Of a stretch of 64,000 bases of DNA, positions 3,416-46,793 are shown in pieces. The notes under the pieces are model-generated. The model did no database searches. It was not told the DNA's origin and saw only the letters and a list, made by a program, of their open reading frames with translations. Both the position numbers and the translations under genes were made by a program. Numbering within the stretch: position 1 is the stretch's first letter; every line of letters starts with the position of its first letter. Source of the DNA: Acidobacteriota bacterium (GTDB lineage Bacteria; Acidobacteriota; Thermoanaerobaculia; UBA5066; Gp7-AA6). Location: positions 4,521 through 68,520 of the forward strand of contig JAIVJS010000075.1 in the NCBI GenBank assembly GCA_020199905.1, in the 5' to 3' direction.

Positions 3416-3499
3416 GCGGGAGGCGGACGAAAGCCGGGAATCGGAAATCGGGACTCGAACGACGGAAATTGAAGAGGGGCCCGCCTCCCGCCTACCGCC
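3408..3499. terminator. Long perfect inverted repeat (19-bp GC-rich stem, ~54-nt loop) between convergent genes; candidate bidirectional terminator
   Basis: GGCGGTAGGCGGGAGGCGG at 3408-3426 is the exact reverse complement of CCGCCTCCCGCCTACCGCC at 3481-3499. The left arm overlaps the stop codon of the BNR gene. No U-tract, as is common in high-GC genomes. Confidence 0.35.
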
Positions 3500-3503
3500 C
3501 CGT

Positions 3504-3869
3504 CTAATATGGCATCTCCTCGTCCGACAGCCCCAGGACGTGCCCGATTTCGTGGACGACCGTGTCGCGGATCTCCCGGATCGCTTCTCCCTTCGAGCGG
3601 CAGGTCCGGAGGATCGGGCCCCGGAAGATCGCGATCTGGCCCGGCAAGTGCGAGACCGCGGACTGGCGGTCGAAGACGTCCATGCCGCGGAAGATGCCGA
3701 AGAGCTCGTCGTCGTCCGCGGTGTCGGTCTCCTCGTAGTCTTCGACGGCGGGCTCCTCTTCGACGACGACCACGACGTTCTCGATGTACCGGGCAAATGC
3801 GGGAGGGACCTGAGCCAGCGCTTCCTCGACGCAGGCGTCGAATTCGTCGGGAGAAAGGCGTGGCCTCAC
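3504..3869 (-). CDS. Zincin-like metallopeptidase family protein (DUF1025-like, HExxH)
   Basis: 121-aa ORF with HEIGHVLGLSDEEM motif near the C-terminus and an acidic central stretch, typical of small predicted Zn-metallopeptidases. Start overlaps the tatD stop by 4 nt. Confidence 0.6.
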   Translation of the reverse strand: MRPRLSPDEFDACVEEALAQVPPAFARYIENVVVVVEEEPAVEDYEETDTADDDELFGIFRGMDVFDRQSAVSHLPGQIAIFRGPILRTCRSKGEAIREIRDTVVHEIGHVLGLSDEEMPY

Positions 3870-20672: not shown

Positions 20673-22568
20673 ATGAAAGACGCTCGATCGCAACGCCTCG
20701 GAAAGAGTGCGGAACGTCGTCGGCGCCGGCCGCGGTTCTCCGCGCTCCTGTTCCTTTTTCCCGTCACCGCGCTCCTCGCGGCGGCGGCCTGCAAAGGTCC
20801 CGCGCCTCCTGGAGGCGCGGGCGTCCCGGCGGCCGGTCCGGCGTCCGGGTCGGCTGGATCCATCCCCTTCCCGGAGCCCGACGAGTCCTCGTGGATCCGT
20901 CCGGCGAAGGACTTTTCGAGCAGTCGCTACAGCACGCTCGACCAGATCAAGTCCGACAACGTCGCGAATTTGAAGCTCGCGTTCACGTTTTCGACCGGCA
21001 TCAACAAGGGGCACGAAGCGGCGCCCCTCGTGGTCAACGGCACGATGTACATCGTCACGCCCTACCCGAATTACCTCTACGCGCTGGATCTGACCTCGCC
21101 GGGCGCGCCCGCGAAGTGGACCTATAAGCCGAAGACCATCCCGTCGGCCCAGGGGGTGGCATGCTGCGACGTGGTCAACCGCGGCGCCGTCTACGGGAAG
21201 GGGCGCATCTACTACAACACCCTCGACGACCAGACGGTCGCCGTGGACGCCGCGACGGGGCAGGAGGTCTGGCGCACCCGGGTCGGGGACATCAACCACG
21301 GCGAGTCGATCACGATGGCGCCGCTCCTCGTCAAAGGCAAGGTCCTCGTCGGAAACAGCGGCGGCGAGTTCGGCGTGAGAGGCTGGTTGACGGCGCTCGA
21401 CGAAGACACGGGCAAGGTCGCATGGCGCGCCTGGAGCACCGGGCCCGACAAGGACGTCCTGATCGGCTCCCGGTTCAAGCCTTTTTACGCCTCCGACCGC
21501 GGCGCCGACCTCGGAGTCTCGAGCTGGCCCGGCGACATGTGGAAGATCGGCGGAGGGACGGTGTGGGGCTGGATTTCCTATGACCCGCAGCTGAACCTGA
21601 TCTATTACGGAACGTCGAATCCGGGTCCGTGGAACCCGGACCAGCGGCCGGGCGACAACAAGTGGACGGCGGCGATCTTCGCGCGCGACCCCGACGACGG
21701 CCAGGCGGTGTGGGCCTACCAGTGGAGCCCGCACGACCTCTTCGACTACGACGGGGTCAACGAAAACGTGCTGGTCGATCTTCCGATCGGAGGCCGGACC
21801 CGCAAGACTCTCCTGAGGGCCGACCGCGACGGCTTTCTGTACGTGCTCGACCGCGAGACCGGGGAGATCATCTCCGCCACGCCGTTCGCCTACACCACGA
21901 CGCGGACGGGCGTCGATTTGAAGAGCGGCCGCCCGATCGAAGTCGCCGAGAAGACCCCGCACGTCGGCACGACGACGCGCGGGATCTGCCCCGCCGCGCC
22001 CGGGGGGAAGGACTGGCAGCCGTCCGCCTTCTCTCCGCGAACGGGCCTCCTCTACATCCCCCACAACAACCTCTGCCAGGACGAAGAGGGCGTTCAGGCG
22101 AACTACATCGAAGGAACCCCGTACGTCGGAGCGAACGTGAAGATGTACGCGGGGCCGGGCGGGCACCGGGGCGAGTTCACCGCGTGGGACCCGATCGCCG
22201 CGCGGCCCGTCTGGAAGATCAAGGAGAAGTTCCCGGCGTGGAGTGGCGCCCTGGCGACGGCCGGCGACGTCGTCTTCTACGGGACGATGGAGGGCTGGTT
22301 CCAGGCAGTGGACGCGCGGTCGGGCAAGCTCCTGTGGCGATTCAAGTGCGGCTCGGGAATCATCGGCCAGCCGATCACGTATCGCGGGCCGGACGGCAAG
22401 CAGTACGTCGCGATCCTGTCCGGCGTCGGGGGGTGGGCGGGCGCTATCGTCGCGAACAACCTCGACCCGCGCGACGGAACCGCGGCGTTGGGATTCGTCA
22501 ACGCCATGGGCGATCTCCCGACGGCGACGACCGCCGGCGGGATGCTGTACGTCTTCGCCCTGCCATGA
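20673..22568 (+). CDS. xoxF: PQQ-dependent methanol/alcohol dehydrogenase, XoxF-type (lanthanide-dependent signature)
   Basis: 631 aa, 8-bladed PQQ propeller. Vicinal disulfide GVACCDVVNRG. Metal/PQQ-site region PHDLFDYDGVNE has Asp at the position that is Ala in Ca-MxaF (DYAG). This is the known lanthanide-coordinating Asp of XoxF/PedH enzymes. Also carries the W-rich docking motifs. N-terminal export signal with RRRRRPRF. Confidence 0.9.
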   Translation: MKDARSQRLGKSAERRRRRPRFSALLFLFPVTALLAAAACKGPAPPGGAGVPAAGPASGSAGSIPFPEPDESSWIRPAKDFSSSRYSTLDQIKSDNVANLKLAFTFSTGINKGHEAAPLVVNGTMYIVTPYPNYLYALDLTSPGAPAKWTYKPKTIPSAQGVACCDVVNRGAVYGKGRIYYNTLDDQTVAVDAATGQEVWRTRVGDINHGESITMAPLLVKGKVLVGNSGGEFGVRGWLTALDEDTGKVAWRAWSTGPDKDVLIGSRFKPFYASDRGADLGVSSWPGDMWKIGGGTVWGWISYDPQLNLIYYGTSNPGPWNPDQRPGDNKWTAAIFARDPDDGQAVWAYQWSPHDLFDYDGVNENVLVDLPIGGRTRKTLLRADRDGFLYVLDRETGEIISATPFAYTTTRTGVDLKSGRPIEVAEKTPHVGTTTRGICPAAPGGKDWQPSAFSPRTGLLYIPHNNLCQDEEGVQANYIEGTPYVGANVKMYAGPGGHRGEFTAWDPIAARPVWKIKEKFPAWSGALATAGDVVFYGTMEGWFQAVDARSGKLLWRFKCGSGIIGQPITYRGPDGKQYVAILSGVGGWAGAIVANNLDPRDGTAALGFVNAMGDLPTATTAGGMLYVFALP

Positions 22569-23455
22569 CGATCCGTCGCGTCACCCCTCTTCTCTTCGCG
22601 CTCCTCCTCGGAGCCATCGCCACGCCCGCGATCGGATTTGAGCTACGTGTCTGCGCCGACCCGAACAACCTGCCCTTCTCGAACGACCGGCTCCACGGGT
22701 TCGAGAACAGGATTGCGTCCGTGCTCGCCCGCGAGATGGGAACGACCGTCCGATACACGTGGTGGGCGCAGCGACGCGGGTTCGTGCGCAACACGCTGAA
22801 GGCGGGCTTGTGCGACGTCGTCCTCGGGGTCCCGGCGGGGCTCGAGTCGGTGCTGGCCACGCGCCCGTATTACCGGTCGACCTACGTCTGGGTGTCGCGG
22901 CGCTCGCGCGAGGCTCCCGTGACGTCCTTCGACGACCCCCGCCTCGCCCGGAAAAAGATCGGCGTCCAGCTCGTCGGCGACGATTATGCGAACACGCCCC
23001 CGGCGCACGCTCTCATGCGACGGGGCCTCATCGGCAACGTGGTCGGGTTCACGCTGTACGGCGACTACTCGAAGCCCAATCCCCCCGCCCGGATTCTCGA
23101 GGCGGTGGCGGCCGGCGAGGTGGACGTCGCGCTCGTCTGGGGGCCACTCGCGGGCTACTTCGCCAGCCGCAGCGGAGGCGCGCTCCGGATCGTACCGGCT
23201 GCGCCGCCGGCCGATCTCCCGGATTTCCCTTTCGCCTTCGACATCGCGATGGGAGTCCGGCGAGGCGACAAGGACTTCAAGACCCGGCTCGATCTCGCGC
23301 TCCTTCGCCGGCGCGCGGAAATCGACCGGATTCTCGATTCGTACGGGGTTCCGCGCGTCAGGACCGCGCCCGCGCCGCGCGCCGACGTGGCAGGGCGGGC
23401 GGCAGGCGCCGACGTGGCGGCGCGGGGGCTCGCGTCCGCGGAGGCCGGGCGATGA
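22566..23455 (+). CDS. xoxJ: MxaJ/XoxJ-like periplasmic solute-binding protein (quinoprotein dehydrogenase-associated SBP family 3)
   Basis: ATG overlaps the xoxF stop (ATGA). Signal peptide MTIRRVTPLLFALLLGAIATPA. LRVCADPNNLPFSN start is typical of MxaJ/XoxJ. ~296 aa. Confidence 0.75.
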
Positions 23456-23967
23456 GAAGCAAACGGGCAGGCCGGCAGCTTCTCGTTTGCGCTGCCCTGG
23501 CGGTCCTGCCGGTCGGGTGCGACAAGCTCTCGAACTCCCTGCACCAGCCGCCCTCCGCGACCGTGCGCACCGACGCGATCGCCGTGTCCGCGCTCGAGCC
23601 CGGCGCGCGGATGCCCGGGATCGTGCACAAGAACCCGCTCGAGGGAAATCCATTCGCCATCTCCGAGGGGCAGCGGCTCTACGACTGGTACAACTGCTCC
23701 GGCTGCCACTTCCGCGGCGGAGGCGGCATCGGTCCGCCCCTGATGGACGAGTTCTGGATCTACGGCGGCAATCCCGCGAACATCTATACGACGATCGTCG
23801 AGGGGCGCCCGAACGGCATGCCCGCTTTCCGGGGAAAGATCCCCGACTATCAGCTCTGGCAGATCGTCGCCTACGTCCAGAGCATGCGCGCCGACAAGCC
23901 GATCGCGTCTCCGCCGGGTCCGCGGGAGGACCACCTGCAGGCCTCGGAAGGCAAGGAGTCGCGGTGA
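23452..23967 (+). CDS. Mono-heme c-type cytochrome (candidate XoxG-like electron acceptor of XoxF)
   Basis: ATG overlaps the xoxJ stop (ATGA). Signal/lipoprotein-like N-terminus MRSKRAGRQLLVCAALAVLPVGC. Single CxxCH (CSGCH) and downstream Met (NGMPAF) as candidate sixth ligand. 171 aa. Confidence 0.7.
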   Translation: MRSKRAGRQLLVCAALAVLPVGCDKLSNSLHQPPSATVRTDAIAVSALEPGARMPGIVHKNPLEGNPFAISEGQRLYDWYNCSGCHFRGGGGIGPPLMDEFWIYGGNPANIYTTIVEGRPNGMPAFRGKIPDYQLWQIVAYVQSMRADKPIASPPGPREDHLQASEGKESR

Positions 23968-24965
23968 GCCGGCGGAGCGGCCTGCCGGCCGCGGCCGCGG
24001 CCCTCCTCTGCGCGGCTCTCTCCGGGTGCCGGGGAATCCAGTCGTCTCTCGACCCCGCCGGCCGCGAGGCCGCGAAGATTTCCGGGCTCTGGTGGCTCTT
24101 CTTCTACGTCTGCACGGCCGTGTTCGTCCTCGTGCTCGCCTTTCTCTTCTACGGGGTCTTCCGGCGGCGTTCGGAAGACGCGCTTGGGGCGCGGGAGCGC
24201 GGCAAGACCTACGTCGCAATCGGCGCGGGCGCGACCGCGGCGATCCTCCTCCTGTTCCTGGTCGTCAGCGTTTCCGCGGGGCGGGAGATCGCGGAGCCCG
24301 CGGGACCCGACGCGCTCAAGGTGCAGGTGATCGGACACCAATGGTGGTGGGAGGTCCGGTATCCAGCGTCCCCCGCGAACCGGACGGTCGTCACCGCGAA
24401 CGAGATCCACGTGCCGGTTGGACGGCCCGTTTTCCTGGAGCTTCTCTCGGGCGACGTGATCCACAGCTTCTGGGCGCCGAACCTCCACGGGAAAAAGGAC
24501 CTCATCCCCGGGCGGATCAACAGCCACGCGTTCACCGCGAAGAAGGCCGGCGTGTTCCGAGGGCAGTGCGCCGAGTTCTGCGGCCTCCAGCATGCCCACA
24601 TGGCCTTCACGATTTTCGCGGAGACGCCGGAGCGCTACTCGGCGTGGTACGAGAAGCAGCTCGCGCCCGCCGCGGAGCCTTCGACCCCGTCGCAGGAGAG
24701 GGGACGGCAGGTCTTCGTCTCCAATTCCTGCGTCTTCTGCCATGCGATCCAGGGCACGCCCGCGTTCGGGCAGGTCGCGCCTGACCTCACGCACGTCGGC
24801 GGGCGCGGGACGCTCGCCGCCGGCAGCGTCGCGAACAATCCGGGAAACCTGGCCGGCTGGATCGCCGACCCGCAGAGCATCAAGCCCGGCAACCACATGC
24901 CGCCGATGCTGATGGCACCCGAAGACCTGCTCGCGGTGACCGACTACCTGGAGAGCTTGAAGTGA
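23964..24965 (+). CDS. ctaC: Cytochrome c oxidase subunit II with fused C-terminal cytochrome c domain (caa3-type)
   Basis: GTG overlaps the upstream stop (GTGA). Two TM helices. CuA site HSFWAPNLHGKKD...CAEFCGLQHAHM. C-terminal CVFCH heme c motif and MPPM. Confidence 0.9.
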   Translation: MSRRSGLPAAAAALLCAALSGCRGIQSSLDPAGREAAKISGLWWLFFYVCTAVFVLVLAFLFYGVFRRRSEDALGARERGKTYVAIGAGATAAILLLFLVVSVSAGREIAEPAGPDALKVQVIGHQWWWEVRYPASPANRTVVTANEIHVPVGRPVFLELLSGDVIHSFWAPNLHGKKDLIPGRINSHAFTAKKAGVFRGQCAEFCGLQHAHMAFTIFAETPERYSAWYEKQLAPAAEPSTPSQERGRQVFVSNSCVFCHAIQGTPAFGQVAPDLTHVGGRGTLAAGSVANNPGNLAGWIADPQSIKPGNHMPPMLMAPEDLLAVTDYLESLK

Positions 24966-26926
24966 AGACGTCCCGGGAGCCCGTCCGGAAGCCGCCCGCG
25001 GCCCCCGAGCCCGCGCCGCTGCCCGCCGCCCTTCCCGAAGCCGAGCTTCCGGCTCACGAGCGCGAAGAGCTGCGCCGCGCCTTCGAGACCCAGCGCGGTT
25101 TCTTCGGCTCCCTGAAGTCCGTCGACCACAAGGTGATCGGGAAGCGCTACGTGATCACCGCGCTCGTCTTCTTTGTCCTGGGCGGCATCGAAGCGATGAC
25201 GATGCGGCTGCAGCTCGCAAAGCCCGAAAACAGCCTTCTGGGCCCGGACCTGTACAACCAGGTCTTCACGATGCACGGCACGACGATGATGTTTCTGTTT
25301 GCCGTGCCGGTGATGGAAGGGCTCGCCGTCTACTTCGTCCCGCTCATGGTGGGCACCAGGAACGTCGCGTTCCCGAAGCTGAACGCCTTCGGGTACTGGA
25401 TCTATGTCCTCGGCGGCGCGTTCGTCTACGGCGGGTTCTTCTTAAACCGCGGCAACGACACGGGCTGGTTCTCCTACGTCCCGCTCTCCGGCCCGCAGTA
25501 CGCGCCGTCTCATCGCGTCGACATCTGGGCGAACATGATCACCTTCACGGAGGTGTCCGCGCTCGCGGTGGCGATCGAGATCATCGTCACGGCGTTCAAA
25601 CAGCGGGCGCCCGGCATGTCGCTGAATCGCATCCCGCTCTTCGTCTGGTCGGTCATAACGACGAATTTCATGGTCATCTTCGCCATGCCGGCCGTCATGC
25701 TCGCGAGCGGGTACCTCGCTCTCGACCGCCTCGTCGGTACCCACTTCTTCAACCCCGCCGAGGGCGGCGACCCGCTCCTGTATCAGCACCTCTTCTGGTT
25801 CTTCGGCCATCCCGAGGTCTACATCATTTTCATCCCCGCGCTCGGGATGGTCTCGACGATCCTGGCCGCCTCGACGAAGCGCCCGATCTTCGGCTACACC
25901 GCGCTCGTGCTCTCGGTGGTGGCGACGGCGTTCCTGGGCTTCGGCCTGTGGGTTCACCACATGTTCGCGACCGGGCTGCCGCAGCTCGGCGAGAGCTTCT
26001 TCACGGTGGCCAGCATGATGATCGCGATACCGAGCGGGGTGCAGATCTTCTGCTGGATACGATCGCTCTGGGGAAGCCGGCCGCGCATGACGACCCCGTT
26101 CCTGTTCGTGCTCGGCTTCTTCTTCATCTTCATCGCGGGAGGGATGACAGGGGTGATGCTCGCCTCCGTTCCCTTCAACCTCCAGGTGCACGACACGTTT
26201 TTCGTGGTGGCGCACTTCCACTACGTGCTGATCGGCGGCGCGGTCTTCCCGCTCTTTGGCGCGCTCACGTTCTGGTTTCCGAAGCTCACCGGCCGGCTGC
26301 TTTCGGAGACTCTCGGCCGCTGGACGTTTGCGGTGATGTTCGTCGGATTCAACCTAACGTTCGGCCCGATGCACTGGCTTGGCTTCCGCGGGATGCCGCG
26401 ACGCGTCTACACGTACCTGCCCGAGATGGGGTGGGGACCCGCTAATCTCGCGGCGACCATCGGGGCGGGAATGCTCGGAGTCGGCGTGCTCCTCTTCCTG
26501 ATCAACGCGGCCCGGAGCCTCCGGAGCGGCGAGGCGGCCGGCAACAATCCGTGGGGCGCGAGCACGCTCGAATGGGCGACGAGCTCGCCTCCGCCGCCCT
26601 ACAATTTCGAGCGGATCCTGGTTGTCTCGAACCGCGACCCGCTCTGGAAGCCGGAGGAGATGGCCGTTGTCACCGGGATGCGGACGGACCGCCGCGAGGT
26701 TTTGACGACCCGGCCGCTCGATGCGGAGCCGGACCACCGCGCCGTGCTCGTCGGCCCCTCGATCTGGCCGCTCTTCCTCGCGTTCGCCCTGGCGGTCGGC
26801 CTCGTAGGCTCGGTCTTCACCCCCTGGGCAATCCTCCTCAGCGGGTTCCTGTTCTTAGTCGCGATGATCGGGTGGTACTGGCCCAAGGGAGAGCCCTCCG
26901 GCCACAACGCGAGGACGGCGTCATGA
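24962..26926 (+). CDS. ctaD: Cytochrome c oxidase subunit I (heme-copper oxidase catalytic subunit)
   Basis: 654 aa. GTG overlaps the ctaC stop. 12+ TM helices. Canonical WFFGHPEVY with CuB His and Tyr. HHMF. Heme a ligands. Confidence 0.95.
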   Translation: MKTSREPVRKPPAAPEPAPLPAALPEAELPAHEREELRRAFETQRGFFGSLKSVDHKVIGKRYVITALVFFVLGGIEAMTMRLQLAKPENSLLGPDLYNQVFTMHGTTMMFLFAVPVMEGLAVYFVPLMVGTRNVAFPKLNAFGYWIYVLGGAFVYGGFFLNRGNDTGWFSYVPLSGPQYAPSHRVDIWANMITFTEVSALAVAIEIIVTAFKQRAPGMSLNRIPLFVWSVITTNFMVIFAMPAVMLASGYLALDRLVGTHFFNPAEGGDPLLYQHLFWFFGHPEVYIIFIPALGMVSTILAASTKRPIFGYTALVLSVVATAFLGFGLWVHHMFATGLPQLGESFFTVASMMIAIPSGVQIFCWIRSLWGSRPRMTTPFLFVLGFFFIFIAGGMTGVMLASVPFNLQVHDTFFVVAHFHYVLIGGAVFPLFGALTFWFPKLTGRLLSETLGRWTFAVMFVGFNLTFGPMHWLGFRGMPRRVYTYLPEMGWGPANLAATIGAGMLGVGVLLFLINAARSLRSGEAAGNNPWGASTLEWATSSPPPPYNFERILVVSNRDPLWKPEEMAVVTGMRTDRREVLTTRPLDAEPDHRAVLVGPSIWPLFLAFALAVGLVGSVFTPWAILLSGFLFLVAMIGWYWPKGEPSGHNARTAS

Positions 26927-27540
26927 GCTCGCGCCGAACGGTGGACGTCTCGCGCTTGCCCGATATCACGCTCGACTCGGGCGCGCTCTTCTGGTGGGCG
27001 ACGGCCGGACTCATCGCGATCGAGGCGATGAGCTTCGCGATCATCATCGCCACCTTCATCTACCTGCGAATGACGGTGACGGACTGGCCACCCCCGACGC
27101 TCCCGCCGCCGGACCTCAGGTGGGGAATCGCGGGCCTGGTGGTCCTCGTCATCAGCTGCGTGCCCATCCGCATGGCGGAGAAGATCGCCGGACGGGGCCG
27201 GCCGGAAGAGGACAGGCGCCGGATCGCCGCTCTCATCCGAGTGTTCCTCCTCATCGCGGCGGTCGCCGTCGCGATCCGCCTCCTCGAATTTCCGGGCACG
27301 CACTGCAAGTGGAACAACAGCGCGTACGGCTCGGTCATCTGGACCACGCTCGGCATCCACCTGCTCGAAGCTCTCGCGGGATTCGCCGAGTTCGCCGTCG
27401 TGGCAGCGGTCCTCGTCGGCAGCCACGCCGAAGAGAAACACCTCCTAGACGTGCGCGCCTGCGCGCTTTTCTGGTACTTCATCGTCGCCGTCTGGATCCC
27501 GCTCTTCGGAATGATCTACGTCTTTCCGAGGCTCTCGTGA
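26923..27540 (+). CDS. ctaE: Cytochrome c oxidase subunit III
   Basis: ATG overlaps the ctaD stop (ATGA). ~205 aa, 5 TM. ALFWYFIVAVWIPLFGMIYVF resembles the conserved subunit III C-terminal helix. Confidence 0.8.
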   Translation: MSSRRTVDVSRLPDITLDSGALFWWATAGLIAIEAMSFAIIIATFIYLRMTVTDWPPPTLPPPDLRWGIAGLVVLVISCVPIRMAEKIAGRGRPEEDRRRIAALIRVFLLIAAVAVAIRLLEFPGTHCKWNNSAYGSVIWTTLGIHLLEALAGFAEFAVVAAVLVGSHAEEKHLLDVRACALFWYFIVAVWIPLFGMIYVFPRLS

Positions 27541-27920
27541 CCGAGCGCGCGATCGCCGGCGGCGAAGCTCCTCCCGAAGCGTCGGCGGACCGGAGCCTAT
27601 GGTTCGGCATTGTCGCGCCGCCGCTCGCGTGGGCGGCCAACGAGCTCGCCGGGCTCCTCCTTCCCGACTGGGTCTGCAAGAGCGGCCACCGGTGGGTTCT
27701 CCACGCGATCACCGCGGCCGCTCTCGCGATCGCCGTTCTGGCCGGAGCGATGGCGAGCCGGTCGGCCCGGCCTTCCGAGGAGGACGCCGGCGACCCGGAG
27801 GGCCCGATCGCGAAGCGCCGGCGTTTCATGAGCCAGCTGGCCGTCATGAGCGCGCTCTTCTTCTCGCTCGTGATTGTCGCGGGAGCGGTGCCGGGCGCGA
27901 TCCACCGACCCTGCGACTGA
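27537..27920 (+). CDS. Small 3-TM membrane protein in subunit IV position of the caa3 operon (CtaF-like)
   Basis: GTG overlaps the ctaE stop (GTGA). 127 aa, three hydrophobic helices. Positional inference only. Confidence 0.45.
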   Translation: MTERAIAGGEAPPEASADRSLWFGIVAPPLAWAANELAGLLLPDWVCKSGHRWVLHAITAAALAIAVLAGAMASRSARPSEEDAGDPEGPIAKRRRFMSQLAVMSALFFSLVIVAGAVPGAIHRPCD

Positions 27921-27925
27921 CCCCC

Positions 27926-28970
27926 ATGCGCTCATCGGGCCTCGCGGACCTTCTCGCTGCCGGAGGGTGGACGTTCGATCCGGCCGTCGTCGCGCTTCTC
28001 GCGGCCTCGGGGTTCCTTTACGCGCGCGGGCTGCGTCGCCTCTGGGGCCGGGCGGGCGCGGGGGCGGGCATCTCGGTGCGTCAGGCGGCGGCGTTCGTCG
28101 GCGGCTGGGCTGCGCTCGCGGTCGCGCTCGTCTCGCCTCTGCACGCGGCCGGCGAAATCCTGTTCTCCGCCCACATGGTGCAGCACGAGCTGCTTATGCT
28201 GGTCGCCGCGCCCTTGTGCGTGATGGGACGCCCGCTGTCCGTCTTTCTCTGGGCCTTTCCCGCCGGCGCGCGCGAGGCGATCGGGGAAGCGTCGAGGGCC
28301 CGGGGGATCTCCGCCGCCTGGACGGCCGTCACGCGCCCGCTGCCCGCCTTTCTCCTCCAGAGCCTCACTCTCTGGATCTGGCATCTGCCCGCGCTCTACC
28401 AGGCGTCCCTCCGATCGGATTTCGCGCACGCCCTGCAGCACGGCAGCTTCTTCGCCGCGTCCACGGTCTTCTGGTGGGCGCTCCTTCAGGGACGGTTCGG
28501 CCGGCAGGGCTACGGAGCCGCCGCAATCGCCGTTTTCGCGACAACCCTCGAAGGCGGGGTGCTCGGCGCGCTGATCACGTTTGCCCGCTCGCTCTGGTAC
28601 CCGATCTACGAAGCGCGCACCGCGGCATGGGGGCTCTCTCCGCTCGAAGACCAGCAGCTCGCCGGGATCCTGATGTGGGTGCCGGCCGGCCTTCTCCTGG
28701 TGGGGTTCGGCCTCGCACTTTTCGCCGCCTGGCTCGGCGAGGCGGAACGGCGGGAAGGGCGTCCCGGGAGCGGATGCGAACGTCGGACCGCCGCTCGACA
28801 ACATCGCCTCCCGCGTCTACCTCGCCGGAAACCTGACGAACGAGCCCGCGCACATGATCGCGTGGATCCGCGATCCCCAGCATCTGCACGCGCCGACCGC
28901 CATGCCGAATTCCGGAGTGACGGCGCGGGACGCTAGGGACATCGCTGCGTACCTCTACACGCTCAAATGA
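27926..28970 (+). CDS. ctaG: Caa3-type cytochrome oxidase assembly factor CtaG (CopD-like), with a frameshift into a C-terminal cytochrome-c-like tail lacking CxxCH
   Basis: N-terminus MRSSGLADLLAAGGWTFDPAVVALLAASGFLYARG plus 6-7 TM helices, MVQHELLM and WHLPALYQ motifs typical of CtaG. The frame-2 ORF degenerates into low-complexity sequence after ~28760. The frame-0 continuation, with no start codon, encodes GPPLDNIASRVYLAGNLTNEPAHMIAWIRDPQHLHAPTAMPNSGVTARDARDIAAYLYTLK. This is clearly homologous to the C-terminus of ctaC (GNLAGWIADPQSIKPGNHMPP...AVTDYLESLK). Its stop at 28968-70 overlaps the next ATG. Confidence 0.55.
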
Positions 28971-29371
28971 CGGGGGCTCCCCGGCGTCCCGCGCGAGCGG
29001 CGGCCGCCCTCCTGGCTCTTGCCGCCGCCTGCCGGGCTCCGGCGGACCGGGTCCGCGATATCCGGATCTTCGCCGCTTCCTGGGCGGAGACCGTCCGCAC
29101 CACCGCCGCCGCCCGCGCCGCGGGACAGGTCCCCCGGGTGTTCGCCCGCGACACCTTCCGCGCAGCGGTGGAAGAGCTCGAAGACGCGAGGAAGAAGCTG
29201 GCGAAGCTCGCGAAAAAAAGCCCGGAAGCGGCGGAGGCCTCCCGCGCGGCGGGAAGGGCGGCCGCCGCCGTCCGATCGATCGCGGCCGGGTCCGACTCCT
29301 CGGACGTCTCGGCCGCCTCTGCCGCGCTCGCCGCTGACGCCGCTCTCCTGCGCGGAGGAGCGCGCCCGTGA
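28967..29371 (+). CDS. Hypothetical exported alpha-helical protein (possible lipoprotein)
   Basis: ATG overlaps the upstream stop. Signal MTGAPRRPARAAAALLALAAAC. Ala-rich helical 134 aa. Stop overlaps the Nramp GTG start (GTGA). Confidence 0.4.
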   Translation: MTGAPRRPARAAAALLALAAACRAPADRVRDIRIFAASWAETVRTTAAARAAGQVPRVFARDTFRAAVEELEDARKKLAKLAKKSPEAAEASRAAGRAAAAVRSIAAGSDSSDVSAASAALAADAALLRGGARP

Positions 29372-30591
29372 AAGGAGCGTTGAAGTGGCTCCTCGGCATC
29401 GTCACGAGCATCTGCGGCTTCATCGAGGTCGGCTCGATCTCGACGTCGGCGCAGGCGGGATCCGAGTTCGGCTTCCGGCTTCTCTGGGCGGTCGCGATCG
29501 CGACCGTCTGCCTCGTCTTCCTGGTCGAAATGTCCGGAAGGCTGGCGCTCGTCAGCGGCCACACGCTCGTGTCGGCGGTCCGCGAGCGCTTTGGGTTCCG
29601 GTTCCACGCGGTGCCGCTCTCGGCGGAGATCCTCCTCGACGTTCTCGTTCTCTCTGCGGAGATCGGCGGCGCGTGCGTGGCGCTCCAGCTCCTGACGGGT
29701 GTCTCCTTCCGGTGGTTTGCCCTGCCGGTCGGCCTCGCCGTCTGGGCGCTGCTCTGGTACGGCACGTTTTCGGTCATCGAGAACGGGGTCTCCGCGCTCG
29801 GGCTCGTGACGCTCGCGTTCGTGGTCGCGGCGTGGAAGGGGCATCCGGATCCGGCGGCGCTCCTGGCCGGCCTCGTGCCCTCCGCGCCGCCGGACTCCGG
29901 AAGCCTCCCCCGTTACGGGTTTCTCGCCGTCGGCATCCTCGGCGCCACGATCAGCCCGTACCTGCTCAATTTCTACTCGTCGGGAGCCGTCGAGGAGAAG
30001 TGGAGCGAGAAGGACGTGATGCCGAATCGGCTCGTCGCGGCGTTCGGTATGTCTTTCGGCAGCGTGGTGTCCGCGGGCGTCCTCGTGGTGGCCGCCCTCG
30101 TCCTCGCCCCGCGGGGCATCCACGTCGACCGGTTCGAGCAGGCGGCGCTGATGCTCCTTCCGGCGTTCCGATCGTGGGGCGTTCCTCTCTTCGCCGCGTG
30201 CCTCTTCATCGGCTGCTTCGGCGCGGCGCTCGAGATCGCGTTGAACCTCGCCTACGCGATGGCGCAGGCGTTCGGATGGAACTGGGGCGAGGACCAGCGC
30301 CCCGCGGAAGACGCGCGGTTCTGCGTCGTCTACACCGCTGCGGTTCTCGCCGGCTCCGTCATCATGACGGCGGGCCTTTCTCCCTTGAAGCTCACGCTCT
30401 TTTCGATGGCGCTGACGGTCGTCGTGCTCCCGCTGATCGTCATGCCGTTTCTCGTGCTCTTGAACGACCCGCATTACGTAAAGACTCATCGCAACGGCTG
30501 GATCGGCAATTTCGTCGTGACGTTCGTCCTCCTCCTCGGCTGCCTTCTGGCGGTCGTCGTGATTCCGCTGGAGGTGATCGGTGGCGGATGA
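29368..30591 (+). CDS. NRAMP-family divalent metal cation transporter (MntH-like)
   Basis: 407 aa, 11 TM helices. N-terminal LKWLLGIVTSICGFIEVGSISTSAQAGSEFGFRLLWAV and mid-protein GATISPYLLNFYSSG architecture typical of Nramp/MntH. Family call by overall similarity, no strict DPGN motif. Confidence 0.65.
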   Translation: MKGALKWLLGIVTSICGFIEVGSISTSAQAGSEFGFRLLWAVAIATVCLVFLVEMSGRLALVSGHTLVSAVRERFGFRFHAVPLSAEILLDVLVLSAEIGGACVALQLLTGVSFRWFALPVGLAVWALLWYGTFSVIENGVSALGLVTLAFVVAAWKGHPDPAALLAGLVPSAPPDSGSLPRYGFLAVGILGATISPYLLNFYSSGAVEEKWSEKDVMPNRLVAAFGMSFGSVVSAGVLVVAALVLAPRGIHVDRFEQAALMLLPAFRSWGVPLFAACLFIGCFGAALEIALNLAYAMAQAFGWNWGEDQRPAEDARFCVVYTAAVLAGSVIMTAGLSPLKLTLFSMALTVVVLPLIVMPFLVLLNDPHYVKTHRNGWIGNFVVTFVLLLGCLLAVVVIPLEVIGGG

Positions 30592-30955
30592 GGTGCATCT
30601 CGTCCGCGACATTCTCGACAAGCAGCTCGTCGACCGCGATCGCCGGCTCATGGGCAAAGCGGACGGCATCGTCCTGCGGATGCGCGGCAGTGGTCCTCCG
30701 GAGGTGGTCGCCATCGAAGCCGGGCCGGGCGTCCTGGCGGACCGTCTGCATCCGGGGCTCGGGCGGCGGCTCTGCGCGGCGCTCGAACGTCTCGGGAAAG
30801 ACATCGGGCAGCCTCTGCGAATCCCCTTCGCGAAGATCCTTCATCGGGGCCTGGATCTCCAGATCGACACGGACGCGCGGCGGACGAGCGCTTACGCCGC
30901 GGAACGGTGGCTCAAAGAGCGCCTGGTCCGCCGGTTCCCCGGCTCGGGAGAATGA
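30581..30955 (+). CDS. PRC-barrel domain protein
   Basis: GTG start overlapping the Nramp end by 11 nt. 124 aa, LVRDILDKQLVDRDRRLMGKADGIVLRM matches the PRC-barrel core. Confidence 0.45.
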   Translation: MADEVHLVRDILDKQLVDRDRRLMGKADGIVLRMRGSGPPEVVAIEAGPGVLADRLHPGLGRRLCAALERLGKDIGQPLRIPFAKILHRGLDLQIDTDARRTSAYAAERWLKERLVRRFPGSGE

Positions 30956-30959
30956 GACG

Positions 30960-31277
30960 ATGACCGCCGCCCGCGAAATCCGCCTGGAGCGGCTCGTCGG
31001 CCGCGAAGTGAGAGACCAGACGGGACGGGCGGTCGGGCGGCTCGAGGAAGTGCGGGCGCGCAAGAAGGGGAACGAATGGGTGGTGACCGACTGCCACATC
31101 GGCACGGCGGCGCTCGTGGAACGGCTGGCCGCGCACATCCTGAGATTCGGGACCCACGGATACCGCGCCTCGTGGGACCAGATCGACTGGTCGGACCCGG
31201 AAAAGCTGCGCCTGGCCTGTCCCCTCGAGGACCTGCGGCGGCTGACGAGCCGGGCCGCGCGCTCGCGCCGGAAATGA
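30960..31277 (+). CDS. PRC-barrel domain protein
   Basis: 105 aa. LVGREVRDQTGRAVGRLEEVRARKKGNEWVVTDCHIG PRC-barrel core. Stop overlaps the next gene ATG (ATGA). Confidence 0.5.
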   Translation: MTAAREIRLERLVGREVRDQTGRAVGRLEEVRARKKGNEWVVTDCHIGTAALVERLAAHILRFGTHGYRASWDQIDWSDPEKLRLACPLEDLRRLTSRAARSRRK

Positions 31278-32281
31278 CGCGCCGGAGCTTCTTCCATCGG
31301 CGAAGCCTCATGGTGGGCGCCGTTCTGACGGGTGTCTGCGTCGTCTCCCTCGCGGCAGCGCCGTCCGGCGCGCCGGCCGGTTTCTTTCGCGTGTACGTGA
31401 CGAACGAGCGCTCCGGCGACGTGACCGTGATCGACCCGCGAACGCGCGCGGCGATCCGCAACATCGCAGTCGGGGGCCGCCCGCGCGGGATCGCCGCCTC
31501 ACCCGACGGACGGCGCCTCTACGTGGCGATCGCCGCCAGGAATGGGGCTCCCGCCGGCATCGCGGTCATCGATGCCGCTTCCGGCCGGGTCTCGGGGAGG
31601 CTTCCATCGGGCCCCGATCCCGAGAACGTCGCCGTCACTCCGGACGGGCGGACACTGTGGATCTCCAACGAGGACGCGTCACACGCGTCGGCGGTGGATG
31701 TCAGGATCCGCCGCATTCTCGCGACCGTTCCGACGGGAGAGGAGCCGGAAGGGGTGGCCGTCTCCGCGGATGGGCGATGGGTCGCCGTCACCTCCGAGAG
31801 CGCGAGCGCCATCACGGTGATCGACGCGCGCTCGCGCCGGGCGATTCGGAAGATCCGGACGGACGCGCGGCCTCGGGCCGTGCGCTTCTCTCCCGACGGG
31901 AAGAGGGTCTACGCAACCGCGGAGATCGGGGGAAGCGTCTCCTGGATCGACACGGCCACCTGGACCGTCGGCGCGCGGCTCGTGCTTCCCGGACCGGTCA
32001 AGGCGGTCGGCGTGGCGGTCCCCCCCGACGGCCGGCGCCTCTACGTGACCACCAGCCACGCCAACGGAGTCGCCGTCGTCGATACCGAGTCCTTCTCCGT
32101 GGCGGCCACCATCCCGGTGGGCGGGCGGCCGTGGGGCATCGCGCTCTCGCCCGACGGCCGCACTCTGTTCACCGCGAACGGGACCTCGGGAGACGTCTCG
32201 GTGGTCGATCTCGCCTCCGGCCGCGCGGTGGCGGCCGTTCCCGCGGGCGACGGGCCCTGGGGCGTCGCGGTCGCGCGTTGA
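31274..32281 (+). CDS. Exported YVTN-family beta-propeller repeat protein (Tat signal)
   Basis: Twin-arginine signal MTRRSFFHRRSLMVGAV. Seven ~40-aa repeats of the type SPDGRRLYVA...VIDAASGRV (ASPDGRRLY, VTPDGRTLW, VSADGRWVAV, FSPDGKRVYA, VPPDGRRLYV, LSPDGRTLF). Confidence 0.75.
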   Translation: MTRRSFFHRRSLMVGAVLTGVCVVSLAAAPSGAPAGFFRVYVTNERSGDVTVIDPRTRAAIRNIAVGGRPRGIAASPDGRRLYVAIAARNGAPAGIAVIDAASGRVSGRLPSGPDPENVAVTPDGRTLWISNEDASHASAVDVRIRRILATVPTGEEPEGVAVSADGRWVAVTSESASAITVIDARSRRAIRKIRTDARPRAVRFSPDGKRVYATAEIGGSVSWIDTATWTVGARLVLPGPVKAVGVAVPPDGRRLYVTTSHANGVAVVDTESFSVAATIPVGGRPWGIALSPDGRTLFTANGTSGDVSVVDLASGRAVAAVPAGDGPWGVAVAR

Positions 32282-43929: not shown

Positions 43930-46793
43930 GGCCGCGCTTCAGGAAGGGCGGCGGAACGGCGGGTGTGATCGCCCCCTGCGAGCCGGCCGTGAGGGTCGAG
44001 CCAGCAGTAGAGGGAGGGAAGGATCAGGAGAATGAGCGGGCTCGAGAGAAACACGGCCTTTTCCCCCACGATGCCGACCATCATGATCGCGCCCACGAAG
44101 CTCGAGATATTGAGAGTCATTCCCGTCACGATGAGTGAGCCGAGAACGCTCGTCAGCACGGTGAGCGCCATGATGACTGTCAGGAGAGGCGCGCGCCAGT
44201 CGCCGAACTCGAACAGCAGGACCACGGCGACGAGGAGCAGGCCGCCGAAGAGAACGCCGAGCAGGCCCTTGAAGGAGCTTTGCTGCTGTTCGTACAGGCC
44301 TCCGAACCCGAGCGACATGCCCGCCGGAAGGTTCAGGCTCCGCGACAGCTTCCCCTGGATCTCGCTCATCGCGCTTCCGAGGCTGCGGCCGGACAGCCGC
44401 GCGGTGACGCCCAGATACGTGCGGAGATTCTCGCGCTGAATCTCGACTTCCGGAGATCCCGTCGAGATCGTGGCGAGCTGCGAGAGCGGCACGAGAGCGC
44501 CGGACCCGGTCTGGATCGGCAGGAGCGAAAGCCCCGACACATCGGAGGTCCGGCGGGAAAACACGCGGATGCCGTAGAGACGCTCCCGGATCCGCAGGCT
44601 CCCCGCCAGCGTACCTCCCAGCGCGGGTTCGACCTCGTTGTGCAGGCTCTCGGCGGTGACGCCGAACCGCGGGAGAGCCTCGGGAATGACGCGCACCGTC
44701 ACCTTCGGTCCCGCGACGGTCACGCCGTCGAAGACGTCCTCGACCCCGGTGACCGTCTGCAGGATCGCCGCGGCGGCCCTGGCCCGATCCTGCAGAGCCG
44801 TCTGGTCCTCTCCGTAGAGCTTGATGTCGATCGGCTGGGGAACGCCGCCGGCGAGGTCGCCGATGTTGTCCTCGAGCAGCTGCCCGAAATCGATGTGCAC
44901 GGCCGGCTGCGCGGCGGAGATTTTCCCGCGCAGGTCGTCGATCACCTCCTCGACCCCGCGCCTTCCCCCCTTCGGCTTCAAACGGATCACGTAGTCGCCC
45001 CGGTTCGGTTCCGTGATGAAGAAGCCGAGTTGCTCACCGGTCCGGCGGGAATAGCCGGCGACGTCGGGAAGCGAAACGATGATCTTCTCGACCTGGTTGA
45101 GCATCTGGTCGGTTTCCGTGAGCGACGTACCCGCCGGGGTCCAGTAGTCGAGGATGATCGAGCCCTCGTCCATGCCGGGCAGGAAATCCGAGCCGATCAC
45201 GGCGTAGAGAAGCCAGCCGCCTCCGAGCAGGACCACGGTCACCGCGATCGCGATCGAAGGATGGCGGATGAAAAAGCGGGCGATCCGCGGAGGCTTTTTT
45301 TCCTTCTTCGCCCGGACCCCGGACGCGACGCGCAGTTTCTCCGCCGCCGCCGGCACGGCGAGCCCGGAGAGGAAATAGGACACGGCGAGCGCCACCGCCA
45401 TCGTGAAGGCGAGCGGCTTGAAGAAGGCGCCGGCCACGCCGGAGAGCAGCGCGAAGGGGAAGAAGATGATGACCGTCGAGAGGCTCGAGCCCGTCAGCGG
45501 CGGAAGCACCTCCGCGAGCCCCGACCGGACGGGATTCGCAGAGACGCGCTCCTCCGCGTGCCGTGCGATGTTCTCGACCACGACGATCGCGTCGTCCACG
45601 ACGAGCCCGATCGCCGCCGCGATCCCGCCGAGCGTCATGAGGTTGATGGTCTGGCCGGAGACTCCGAGCGCGAGGAGAACGATCGCCACGGTTACCGGAA
45701 TGGTCGCGACCGCGATGGCGGTGATCCGGAAGTTCCGAAGGTAGAGAAAGAGAACGATCGCGGCAAGAGCCACACCGATCAGGATCGCGTCCCGGACGCC
45801 GCGGACCGAATGCCGGATGAACTCCGCCTGATCGTAGAACGTGGACCAGCGCGCCCCTTTTGGAAGGAGGTCCGGGTGCTGCTTCAAAAGAGATTCCACC
45901 CCCGTCGCGATGGCGAGAGTGCTCGCGTCGGGCTGGCGGACGATGTTCACGAGGACGGCCGGCCGGCGCTCGGCTGTCGTGCGGACGTAAGACACGGCGT
46001 CGGCGGCAACGACTTCGCCGAGCTGGGAGAGAGGCGCCGCGACGCCGCCCCTGGGGGAGGCCACCGCGATGCGGCCGAGCTCGGCGATTCCGGCGGGCTT
46101 TCCCGTGACGAGCGAGAGATAGAGCTCGTGGTTGGATTCGACGAGCCCCGCCGAGACCAGCACGTTGTTCTTCCGGATCGCGTCGACCACATCGCTCGCC
46201 GACAGCCGCCGCGCGCCGAGGCGTTCCGGATTCAGGCGAACCTGAAACTCCCGGACGGCACCGCCCTGCACCTGGACCTGCGAAACGCCCGGGATCTGGA
46301 TGAGCGCGGGACGCAGCTGGAAATCCGCCAGCTCCCGCAGGGCCGCCGGAGACAGCGTGTCGGAGGTCAGGGCATACCCCAGAATCGGGAAGACGGCGGT
46401 GTTCATCCACTCGGCATCGATCCGCGTGTCGGAAGGGAGATCCGGCCGCACGCGCGCGATCTCGGCCTGCACCCGCTGGAGCGCGAGCTGCATGTCGGTG
46501 CCCCACGCAAACTCGCCGCTGATCTCGACCGAGCCCCGGGTCGACGTGGACACCACACGCACGATGCCCGGCACCCTCAGGATTCCCTCCTCGAGCGGTC
46601 GCGTCACGGCGGGAATCATCTGGGCGGCGGGCTCTTCCGCCCCTTCCGCGATCACCTTGACGCGGGGAAAGGTCACCGTCGGAAAGATTGCGGAAGGAAG
46701 GCGGCTCGCGTACCAGACGCCCGCCGCACAGAGCACGAGCAGAAGAAGAAAGAGCGCCTGGGGACGGTTCGAGAGGCGTTCCGAAATGCTCAT
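43926..46793 (-). CDS. RND superfamily efflux pump (AcrB/CzcA-like, possibly heavy-metal or HAE type)
   Basis: 955 aa. N-terminus MSISERLSNRPQALFLLLLVLCAAGVWYASRLPSAIFPTVTFP typical of RND. 12 TM in two bundles with large periplasmic loops. Stop overlaps the OMP GTG start (GTGA). Confidence 0.85.
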   Translation of the reverse strand: MSISERLSNRPQALFLLLLVLCAAGVWYASRLPSAIFPTVTFPRVKVIAEGAEEPAAQMIPAVTRPLEEGILRVPGIVRVVSTSTRGSVEISGEFAWGTDMQLALQRVQAEIARVRPDLPSDTRIDAEWMNTAVFPILGYALTSDTLSPAALRELADFQLRPALIQIPGVSQVQVQGGAVREFQVRLNPERLGARRLSASDVVDAIRKNNVLVSAGLVESNHELYLSLVTGKPAGIAELGRIAVASPRGGVAAPLSQLGEVVAADAVSYVRTTAERRPAVLVNIVRQPDASTLAIATGVESLLKQHPDLLPKGARWSTFYDQAEFIRHSVRGVRDAILIGVALAAIVLFLYLRNFRITAIAVATIPVTVAIVLLALGVSGQTINLMTLGGIAAAIGLVVDDAIVVVENIARHAEERVSANPVRSGLAEVLPPLTGSSLSTVIIFFPFALLSGVAGAFFKPLAFTMAVALAVSYFLSGLAVPAAAEKLRVASGVRAKKEKKPPRIARFFIRHPSIAIAVTVVLLGGGWLLYAVIGSDFLPGMDEGSIILDYWTPAGTSLTETDQMLNQVEKIIVSLPDVAGYSRRTGEQLGFFITEPNRGDYVIRLKPKGGRRGVEEVIDDLRGKISAAQPAVHIDFGQLLEDNIGDLAGGVPQPIDIKLYGEDQTALQDRARAAAAILQTVTGVEDVFDGVTVAGPKVTVRVIPEALPRFGVTAESLHNEVEPALGGTLAGSLRIRERLYGIRVFSRRTSDVSGLSLLPIQTGSGALVPLSQLATISTGSPEVEIQRENLRTYLGVTARLSGRSLGSAMSEIQGKLSRSLNLPAGMSLGFGGLYEQQQSSFKGLLGVLFGGLLLVAVVLLFEFGDWRAPLLTVIMALTVLTSVLGSLIVTGMTLNISSFVGAIMMVGIVGEKAVFLSSPLILLILPSLYCWLDPHGRLAGGDHTRRSAALPEARP

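What the first reader, a model, noticed from the sequence alone, without database searches (positions are those of the whole stretch)
28740..28970. ctaG runs out of frame into a cytochrome-c-like tail that duplicates the ctaC C-terminus but lacks CxxCH
The CtaG reading frame decays into Arg-rich low complexity after ~28760. Meanwhile the +1 frame, which has no start codon of its own, encodes a segment (GPPLDNIASRVYLAGNLTNEPAHMIAWIRDPQHLHAPTAMPNSGVTARDARDIAAYLYTLK). This aligns residue-by-residue with the distal half of the ctaC cytochrome c domain (APDLTHVGGRGTLAAGSVANNPGNLAGWIADPQSIKPGNHMPPMLMAPEDLLAVTDYLESLK). Its stop is precisely overlapped by the next gene's ATG. There are three possibilities: a 1-nt indel in the G-run near 28755-28770 (sequencing error or real pseudogenisation), a CtaG with a heme-less cyt-c-fold extension, or a partial duplication of ctaC 3' sequence. 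A cyt-c-fold docking tail on an oxidase assembly factor would be novel.
Basis: seen in the sequence. Interest (0 to 1): 0.6.

Follow-up and report, generated by a model that had tools for sequence, protein, structure and literature searches.

The report
Truncated cytochrome c gene after ctaG
The cytochrome-c-like tail after ctaG is the back half of an ordinary neighbouring cytochrome c gene whose front half (about 240 bases) is missing from this metagenome-assembled contig, most likely through an assembly fault, so it is not a new kind of protein.

Summary
The sequence facts hold. ctaG (27926..) leaves its homologous frame at 28753/28755, and the +1 frame then encodes 71 residues of a class I cytochrome c without CxxCH, ending in an ATGA overlap with the next gene.

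The tail is not a CtaG extension, a 1-nt frameshift, or a copy of ctaC (33% aa identity, no nucleotide similarity). It is codons 67-137 of a separate 137-aa lipoprotein-type cytochrome c gene. That gene normally follows ctaG: 56 of 77 related loci have it as a separate gene, 21 have it fused in frame, and all 77 have CxxCH.

Two sister MAGs, 99.8-99.9% identical, carry this gene intact with start codon, signal peptide, LLSAAGC and CGSCH. From 28755 onward they match the window base for base. The 240 nt before that point are absent from the whole window.

The junction is private to this contig. This MAG and a sister MAG that is probably from the same submission show five more one-sided gaps of 98-350 nt inside conserved genes. 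One gap shares its right breakpoint between the two MAGs. The third MAG lacks nothing of 2 nt or more.

Best reading: an assembly gap closed without Ns (about 0.7). Rival: a real, very recent deletion (about 0.27). Either way the finding is ordinary and of low interest.

The parts
27926..28753 (+). ctaG core, codons 1-276 (Caa3_CtaG family), ending ...FAAWLGEAERR
   Evidence: Pfam PF09678 at 193.6 bits. tblastn of P0001 aa 1-276 gives 72% identity. 99.86% identical to L165 up to 28752.
28753..28755 (+). Junction. The window leaves the sequence shared with L165 after 28752 and joins L163/L168 nt 243 at 28755. There is no microhomology.
28754..28936 (+). Out-of-frame read-through of the annotated ctaG ORF (MCA1582260.1): 60 codons, 27% Arg, no family match, stop TAG 28934-28936.
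28755..28970 (+). 3' remnant (codons 67-137 plus stop) of a separate 137-aa lipoprotein-type cytochrome c gene. It keeps the distal Met-ligand region (PTAMPN) but lacks the start codon, signal peptide, lipobox-like Cys and CGSCH.
   Evidence: Pfam PF00034 positions 20-90/90. 100% nucleotide identity to L163 243-458, whose full gene is intact.
28967..29371 (+). Downstream 134-aa gene whose ATG overlaps the cytochrome c stop (ATGA). The same arrangement is seen in sister MAGs and in the P0001/P0002 contigs.
24651..24965 (+). It is only a family-level relative of the remnant.
44047..44048 (-). Second gapless 'deletion' in this contig. About 201 nt of an RND transporter gene are missing relative to L169. 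The right breakpoint is shared with a 162-nt gap in sister MAG L170.

Best explanation
**What it is.** The region holds two ordinary neighbouring genes. One is ctaG (Caa3_CtaG-type oxidase assembly factor). The other is a small lipoprotein-type c-type cytochrome, which in this lineage is a separate gene in the +1 frame. Its ATG overlaps the end of ctaG, and its stop overlaps the next gene's ATG.

**What is missing.** The contig lacks about 240 nt. These comprise the last ~17 codons of ctaG and the first 66 codons of the cytochrome c gene: start, signal peptide, LLSAAGC and the CGSCH heme site. As a result the annotated ctaG ORF runs into the cytochrome c gene out of frame, and the cytochrome c remnant has no start and no heme motif.

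**Why.** The missing block is most likely an assembly fault: two contig ends joined without Ns across an unassembled stretch of 75% GC. It is probably not a change in the organism's genome.

**Shown.** The identity of the remnant, the size and content of the missing block, and its presence in sister assemblies.

**Inferred.** That the join is artefactual.
For: **Identity of the remnant**
- L163/L167 (GCA_020200255.1) and L168 (GCA_046262695.1) match window 28755 onward at 99.8-99.9%.
- Immediately upstream they carry 242 nt absent from the window. These encode MRCERRRILRAARGVLAAAFAAGALLSAAGCGENAAEKAAARMTGGRPDAGREAIRRYGCGSCHHI-, plus a ctaG 3' end ...AEGEPALSRHGEDRHAV* in the other frame.
- The full protein covers Pfam Cytochrom_C positions 4-90.
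- The ctaG + cytochrome c pair is common: 56 loci with separate genes and 21 fused, all 77 with CxxCH.

**Artefact**
- The junction-bearing ORF is on record from one contig only, and the junction 41-mer is absent from the metagenome contigs.
- The remnant shows zero decay: 0 differences from L163 over 28755-28970.
- The same place is troublesome in other assemblies. Contigs of two other MAGs start at the identical nucleotide 242 nt left of the junction. A JGI contig starts 71 nt upstream of the gene. L165 diverges at 28753.
The window has ~201 nt missing at 44047/8. The sister lacks 174, 350, 98 and 162 nt.
- All of these gaps are one-sided, with 0-4 nt of microhomology. The RND-gene gaps in the two MAGs share the same right breakpoint. 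GCA_046262695.1 lacks nothing of 2 nt or more.
- Composition is the same on both sides of the junction (GC 0.679 vs 0.690). The missing block is 75% GC, and 79% in the signal-peptide part.
Against: - No reads are available, so the join cannot be tested directly.
- A de Bruijn assembler cannot invent junction k-mers, and the two sides share no sequence. The artefact therefore needs a scaffolding, merging or gap-stripping step that I cannot document for this MAG.
- Four of the six gaps are multiples of 3 (240, 201, 162, 174). That would fit selection-filtered real deletions, although the chance probability is about 0.10.
- The true sequence between window 28752 and L163 nt 1 is not recovered in any assembly. 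The exact size of 240 nt assumes that the two abut.
Confidence: 0.7

Rival explanations
1. A real, very recent deletion of about 240 nt in this strain. It spans the ctaG stop and the cytochrome c start. It leaves CtaG with its full core plus a 60-residue Arg-rich junk tail, and inactivates the partner cytochrome c. The result would be a fresh pseudogene and a natural knock-out.
For: - The junction has no shared k-mer on which an assembler could mis-join.
- A 240-nt length keeps both native frames.
- CtaG-only homologues ending 15-25 residues after AERRV exist in related Thermoanaerobaculia. Loss of the cytochrome c could therefore be tolerated.
- The sister MAGs also show lesions in this operon: a frameshift in L165 ctaG at 28296 and a 98-nt loss of the upstream cytochrome c start in L164.
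Against: - The junction is seen in one contig only.
- The remnant shows no decay at all.
- The left breakpoint falls within 2 nt of the point where other assemblies break or diverge, which is unlikely for an independent deletion.
- Six one-sided gaps of 98-350 nt in conserved genes, against only ~0.1% SNPs, are implausible as biology. The shared right breakpoint at the RND gene in two MAGs points to assembly.
Confidence: 0.27
2. A 1-nt sequencing error or indel in the G-run at 28755-28770, inside a fused ctaG-cytochrome c gene.
For: Fused in-frame CtaG-cytochrome c proteins exist. They include the closest relatives, P0001 (72% identity) and P0002 (69%).
Against: - Restoring the frame would still leave 58-76 residues missing: linker, TM or signal segment and CxxCH.
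- P0001 residues 277-355 have no counterpart anywhere in the window.
- The near-identical strains have separate genes in different frames, not a fusion.
Confidence: 0.01
3. A functional heme-less cytochrome-c-fold tail on CtaG, reached by +1 ribosomal frameshifting, which acts as a docking module.
For: The +1 frame is open and well conserved, and its stop is coupled to the next gene.
Against: - That conservation is inherited from an intact heme-binding gene that is 100% identical in sister MAGs.
- The hydrophobic signal or TM segment that places the domain outside the membrane is in the missing block. A fused tail would therefore sit in the cytoplasm after the Arg-rich end of the last CtaG helix.
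- Only profile positions 20-90 of the domain remain.
- No related locus lacks CxxCH.
Confidence: 0.01
4. A partial duplication of the 3' end of ctaC, inserted after ctaG.
For: The two align collinearly at 33% identity.
Against: - There is no nucleotide similarity.
- The remnant is 70% identical to the cytochrome c of P0001 and 100% identical to that of L163.
- The gene pair is conserved across phyla.
Confidence: 0.01

Closest known systems
Caa3_CtaG (PF09678), the cytochrome c oxidase assembly factor of Bacillus subtilis type, tentatively a CuB insertion factor (PMC9145763, PMC8239418)
   Same: - Full-length domain match.
- The His/Glu/Asp-containing columns that are invariant or nearly invariant among the 17 aligned homologues are also present in the window protein.
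- It is the last gene of a ctaC-ctaD-ctaE cluster.
   Different: - It scores far below the TIGR02737 equivalog cutoff (64 vs 279 bits).
- As annotated, it carries a 60-residue junk C-terminus created by the junction.
CtaG-associated small lipoprotein cytochrome c, separate or fused (PF09678+PF00034; JGI product name 'CtaG/cytochrome c2')
   Same: The remnant is the C-terminal 71 residues of such a protein. It is 100% identical to the sister-MAG protein MCA1610702.1 and 70% identical to P0001.
   Different: In the window it lacks the start codon, signal peptide, lipobox-like Cys and CxxCH. Every other locus examined has CxxCH (77/77), and 69/77 have the lipobox-like Cys.
Cytochrome c domain of caa3-type subunit II (ctaC, window 24651-24965)
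   Same: Same Pfam family and the same distal motif order.
   Different: Only 33% identity, no DNA similarity, and a different gene lineage.

Membership tests
Caa3_CtaG (PF09678) | Domain match above the Pfam gathering score over the full profile | tested here: met
   193.6 bits vs 27.7, profile positions 2-235/237.
Caa3_CtaG (PF09678) | Conserved His/Asp candidate metal ligands and a position at the end of a cta operon | tested here: met
   Columns H83, H87, E88, H153, H168 and H172 are invariant, and D242 is nearly invariant, across the 17-sequence alignment that includes the window protein. These columns were not mapped onto B. subtilis numbering. The operon order ctaC-D-E-small-ctaG is shown.
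caa3_CtaG equivalog TIGR02737 | Score above the NCBIfam equivalog cutoff | tested here: not met
   64.3 bits vs 279.35.
Class I c-type cytochrome (PF00034) | CxxCH heme-attachment motif | tested here: not met
   None in any frame of 28600-28980. It is present as CGSCH in L163/L168.
Class I c-type cytochrome (PF00034) | Complete domain with its own start codon and export signal | tested here: not met
   Only profile positions 20-90/90 are present. There is no start codon before HMIAW. The signal peptide lies in the missing 242 nt.
Class I c-type cytochrome (PF00034) | Distal Met-ligand region | tested here: met
   PTAMPN is retained and aligned with TAMP in all homologues.
Fused CtaG-cytochrome c architecture (PF09678+PF00034) | A single ORF with a hydrophobic linker segment and the cytochrome c domain in frame | tested here: not met
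   The frames differ, and the linker and TM segment are absent. Sister strains have two separate genes.
Programmed +1 frameshift gene | A frameshift conserved in orthologues at a defined shift site | tested here: not met
   Orthologues are either fused in frame or separate genes with their own start. The junction is private to one contig.
Segmental duplication of ctaC 3' end | Nucleotide-level similarity to ctaC | tested here: not met
   blastn with word size 7 finds only chance matches of 13 nt or less.

The most novel reading that the evidence does not exclude
The junction is real. This strain has just lost the CtaG-associated cytochrome c and the native CtaG C-terminus in one ~240-nt deletion, while keeping an otherwise intact caa3-type oxidase operon. 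It would then be a natural knock-out showing that the conserved CtaG partner cytochrome is dispensable. The more exotic reading, a frameshift-expressed heme-less tail, is at most 0.01.
Probability: 0.27. Interest if true: 0.15.

Novelty: not a real feature. Interest (0 to 1): 0.06.

Why it matters
It matters mainly as a caution. GenBank carries this ORF as an ordinary 336-aa 'cytochrome c oxidase assembly protein' (MCA1582260.1), with a 60-residue junk tail and no neighbouring cytochrome c. This MAG and its sister hold several similar silent gaps in conserved genes.

The only point of wider biological interest is a by-product. Caa3_CtaG is very often paired with, or fused to, a small lipoprotein-type cytochrome c. 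The two CtaG reviews I read do not mention this pairing. It could bear on how copper or electrons reach the assembling oxidase.

Tried and rejected
- **Junction in other assemblies.** I searched for the junction 41-mer in the metagenome contigs and found none.
- **Closer relatives.** Protein-pattern scans of genome and metagenome collections gave a best identity of 60%. The window's own species was not retrieved, probably because ctaG is unassembled in the representative genome.
- **True ctaG 3' end.** I tried to recover the 3' end that precedes L163 nt 1 by searching with a predicted C-terminus. Only the L165-type protein came back, so the exact deletion size rests on an assumption.
- **Repeat-mediated origin.** The junction 14-mer recurs at 29247, but this is within chance (10 of 100 shuffles).
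- **Inter-species graph node at the AWLGEAERR motif.** I tested whether this conserved motif could be such a node. The longest cross-species exact matches lie instead at 28160-28194, so the idea has no support.
- **Two-locus model (operon natively linked to the L165-type downstream).** Rejected as the less likely option, for three reasons:
  - The L165 right part occurs in only one contig.
  - Its GC3 is lower, 0.77-0.80 against 0.86-0.90 for the operon.
  - The closest relatives, L001 and L002, show the window's gene order.
- **Structure prediction of the 'fused product'.** Not run. The product is not encoded in one frame, and it lacks the heme site and the membrane-crossing segment.

Full report
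**Observation**

The ORF starting at ATG 27926 is a Caa3_CtaG protein (PF09678, 193.6 bits, residues 31-270). It lies at the end of a cluster made up of a PQQ dehydrogenase, an SBP_bac_3 protein, a cytochrome c, ctaC (COX2 plus a cytochrome c domain), ctaD, ctaE and a 127-aa gene.

After codon 276 (...FAAWLGEAERR, 28753) the frame runs 60 more codons of 27%-Arg sequence to TAG 28934-28936. That stretch has no family match.

The +1 frame is open from 28674 but has no start codon. It encodes ...KGVPGADANVGPPLDNIASRVYLAGNLTNEPAHMIAWIRDPQHLHAPTAMPNSGVTARDARDIAAYLYTLK*. This hits Pfam Cytochrom_C only at profile positions 20-90 of 90 (23.2 bits). No CxxCH exists in any frame of 28600-28980. The stop at 28968-28970 overlaps ATG 28967 of the next ORF.

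The codon-position GC signature jumps from the ctaG frame to the +1 frame exactly at 28754/28755.

**What the tail is**

A database search with the conceptually joined product showed that CtaG plus cytochrome c proteins (PF09678+PF00034, 390-430 aa) are abundant. They occur in Acidobacteriota, Gemmatimonadota, Burkholderiales and other groups, and JGI names some of them 'CtaG/cytochrome c2'.

The closest hits, P0001 (72% identity) and P0002 (69%), read ...AWLGEA(Q/E)RR, then a linker, a hydrophobic segment ending in ...AGCEE, then ...RRYGCGSCH.I.GVPGA..VGPPL...YLY..K. Protein and DNA alignments show one clean block missing from the window between AERR and KGVPGA.

tblastn places P0001 residues 1-276 on 27926-28753 and residues 356-426 on 28755-28967. 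Residues 277-355 have no counterpart anywhere in the 64 kb.

The tail is 70% identical to P0001 (E=1e-34). It is only 33% identical to the ctaC cytochrome c domain, with no nucleotide similarity. It is therefore not a ctaC duplicate.

**Separate gene or fusion**

Among 162 fetched loci, 77 have a cytochrome c within 700 nt downstream of the ctaG core. In 56 of these it is a separate gene, usually in another frame, with its own start and a signal peptide ending in a lipobox-like Cys. In 21 it is fused in frame. All 77 have CxxCH, and 69 have the lipobox-like Cys. A frame change between ctaG and the cytochrome c is therefore the normal state in most genomes.

**Near-identical relatives**

The window belongs to an NCBI MAG named 'Acidobacteria bacterium', with locus tags LC796_. 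Its ctaG as deposited is MCA1582260.1, on a 70,238-nt contig.

Exact-protein look-ups found two sister MAGs.

- **GCA_020200255.1, contig 78 (L163/L167), and GCA_046262695.1, contig 155 (L168).**
  - They match the window from 28755 onward at 99.86% and 99.8%.
  - Directly upstream they carry 242 nt that the window lacks.
  - These 242 nt hold a ctaG 3' end (...AEGEPALSRHGEDRHAV*, TGA at 52-54).
  - Ten bases overlapping that, they hold the ATG of an intact 137-aa cytochrome c: MRCERRRILRAARGVLAAAFAAGALLSAAGCGENAAEKAAARMTGGRPDAGREAIRRYGCGSCHHIKGVPGADANV...YTLK.
  - That protein covers Pfam profile positions 4-90.
  - The window's remnant is its codons 67-137, with no nucleotide difference.
- **GCA_046262695.1, contig 90 (L165).**
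  - It matches the window from 22537 to 28752 at 99.855% and then diverges. Its ctaG ends normally (...AERRVALGSSDALRKERS*).
  - A different cytochrome c and a beta-propeller gene follow.
  - That right-hand part is on record only from this contig. Its GC3 is 0.77-0.80, against 0.86-0.90 for the operon and 0.82-0.89 for the window's downstream genes.
  - The window's gene order is the one seen in the closest relatives, L001 and L002.
  - I therefore take the window's order as native and the L165 right part as foreign or chimeric.

If L163 nt 1 abuts window 28752, the reading frame fits and ctaG would end ...GEAERRAEGEPALSRHGEDRHAV*. The missing block is then L163 nt 3-242, which is 240 nt. This abutment is an assumption, because the bridging sequence was not recovered.

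**Real deletion or artefact**

Several observations point to an assembly fault.

- The junction-bearing ORF is on record from one contig only. The junction 41-mer is absent from the metagenome contigs.
- The remnant shows no decay at all.
- The left breakpoint lies within 2 nt of the point where L165 diverges. Contigs of two other MAGs start at the very same nucleotide 242 nt to the left of the right breakpoint. A JGI contig with a 96%-identical gene starts 71 nt upstream of it.
- Longer comparisons show more gapless gaps in this MAG and in GCA_020200255.1, at otherwise 99.9-100% identity:

| MAG | Position | Size | Gene affected |
|---|---|---|---|
| Window | 44047/8 | ~201 nt | RND transporter |
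| GCA_020200255.1 | same RND site, same right breakpoint | 162 nt | RND transporter |
| GCA_020200255.1 | window 3475-3648 | 174 nt | not identified |
| GCA_020200255.1 | window 20678-21027 | 350 nt | start and N-terminus of the PQQ dehydrogenase |
| GCA_020200255.1 | window 23432-23529 | 98 nt | start and signal peptide of the upstream 171-aa cytochrome c |

- All six gaps are one-sided and have 0-4 nt of microhomology. GCA_046262695.1 lacks nothing of 2 nt or more relative to the others.
- Six gene-breaking deletions against about 0.1% SNPs, with a breakpoint shared between MAGs, fit contig ends joined without Ns much better than they fit biology.

Two points count against the artefact reading. 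I cannot name the pipeline step responsible. Four of the six gap lengths are multiples of three, although the chance probability of that is about 0.1.

I put the artefact at about 0.7 and a real recent deletion at about 0.27.

**Mechanism and consequence**

In the organism, as represented by the sister MAGs, ctaG and a lipoprotein-type cytochrome c are two translationally coupled genes. The hydrophobic N-terminal segment (residues 8-26) and the Cys of LLSAAGC indicate export and membrane anchoring. This is an inference, because no signal-peptide predictor was available.

If the deletion were real, three things would follow.

- CtaG would keep its whole core. CtaG-only homologues end 15-25 residues after AERRV.
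- CtaG would gain a cytoplasmic junk tail.
- The cytochrome c would be dead, with no start codon, no export signal and no heme site.

A fused, frame-restored product would place the fragment on the cytoplasmic side, because the membrane-crossing segment lies in the missing block.

**Comparison with what is known**

Caa3_CtaG has seven predicted TM segments and is tentatively a CuB insertion factor (PMC9145763, PMC8239418). Term searches of these two reviews turned up no mention of a cytochrome c partner or fusion, but sequence databases already annotate the architecture.

**Verdict**

The sequence observation is confirmed. The feature is a truncated ordinary gene, most probably created by assembly. 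Interest is very low.

Noticed in passing
window 44047-44048 (minus-strand RND/ACR_tran gene, 43926-46793): The window lacks about 201 nt of an RND transporter gene that is present in L169 (GCA_046262695.1). Sister MAG L170 lacks 162 nt at the same site, with the identical right breakpoint (...|CTCTCGAGCCCGC). Nested gapless gaps of this kind look like assembly joins.
   Followed up: partly
window 3475-3648, 20678-21027 and 23432-23529, compared with L171/L164 (GCA_020200255.1 contig JAIVJB010000120.1): The sister MAG lacks 174, 350 and 98 nt at these places. The second removes the start and N-terminal ~117 codons of the PQQ dehydrogenase. The third removes the start and signal peptide of the 171-aa cytochrome c upstream of ctaC. 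Flanks are 99.9-100% identical.
   Followed up: partly
L165 5724-5803 (window 28296-28302): ctaG in GCA_046262695.1 carries a 1-nt deletion plus a substitution in a G3C3G5 run. The gene is therefore called as a 193-aa fragment (MFN2633216.1). This is either a homopolymer error or a real frameshift.
   Followed up: no
L165 6216-7060 vs window 28753 onward: One sister contig continues after ...AERR with a different ctaG end, a different 122-aa cytochrome c and a beta-propeller gene. These have lower GC3 (0.77-0.80) and are on record only from that contig. This could be strain-level replacement, HGT or a chimeric contig.
   Followed up: partly
L167 and L168 nt 1 (242 nt left of window 28755); contig of P0121: Contigs from two different MAG projects begin at exactly the same nucleotide just after the ctaG ...AERR region. 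A JGI contig begins 27 nt further left. Something at the ctaG 3' end repeatedly breaks assemblies, and I could not identify it.
   Followed up: partly
77 of 162 related loci (e.g. L006 4660-5205, L010, L001 606-1886, L005, L007): Caa3_CtaG is frequently followed by, or fused to, a small cytochrome c: 56 loci with separate genes and 21 fused. The fused forms keep the hydrophobic segment and the lipobox-like Cys internally. The CtaG reviews read here do not mention this pairing. It hints at a redox partner for oxidase metal-centre assembly.
   Followed up: partly
window 28748-28761 and 29247-29260: The 14-mer that spans the junction (CGGCGGGAAGGGCG) recurs exactly 499 nt downstream, in the 134-aa gene. 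This is within chance for this GC-rich sequence (10 of 100 shuffles).
   Followed up: yes
window 20673-32281: Gene context, in order: a PQQ-dependent dehydrogenase, an SBP_bac_3 (MxaJ-like) protein, a cytochrome c, the caa3-type oxidase genes, ctaG and its cytochrome c. These are followed by a 134-aa Ala-rich protein with no family match, an Nramp transporter, two small unknown genes, a beta-propeller protein and a TonB-dependent receptor.
   Followed up: no
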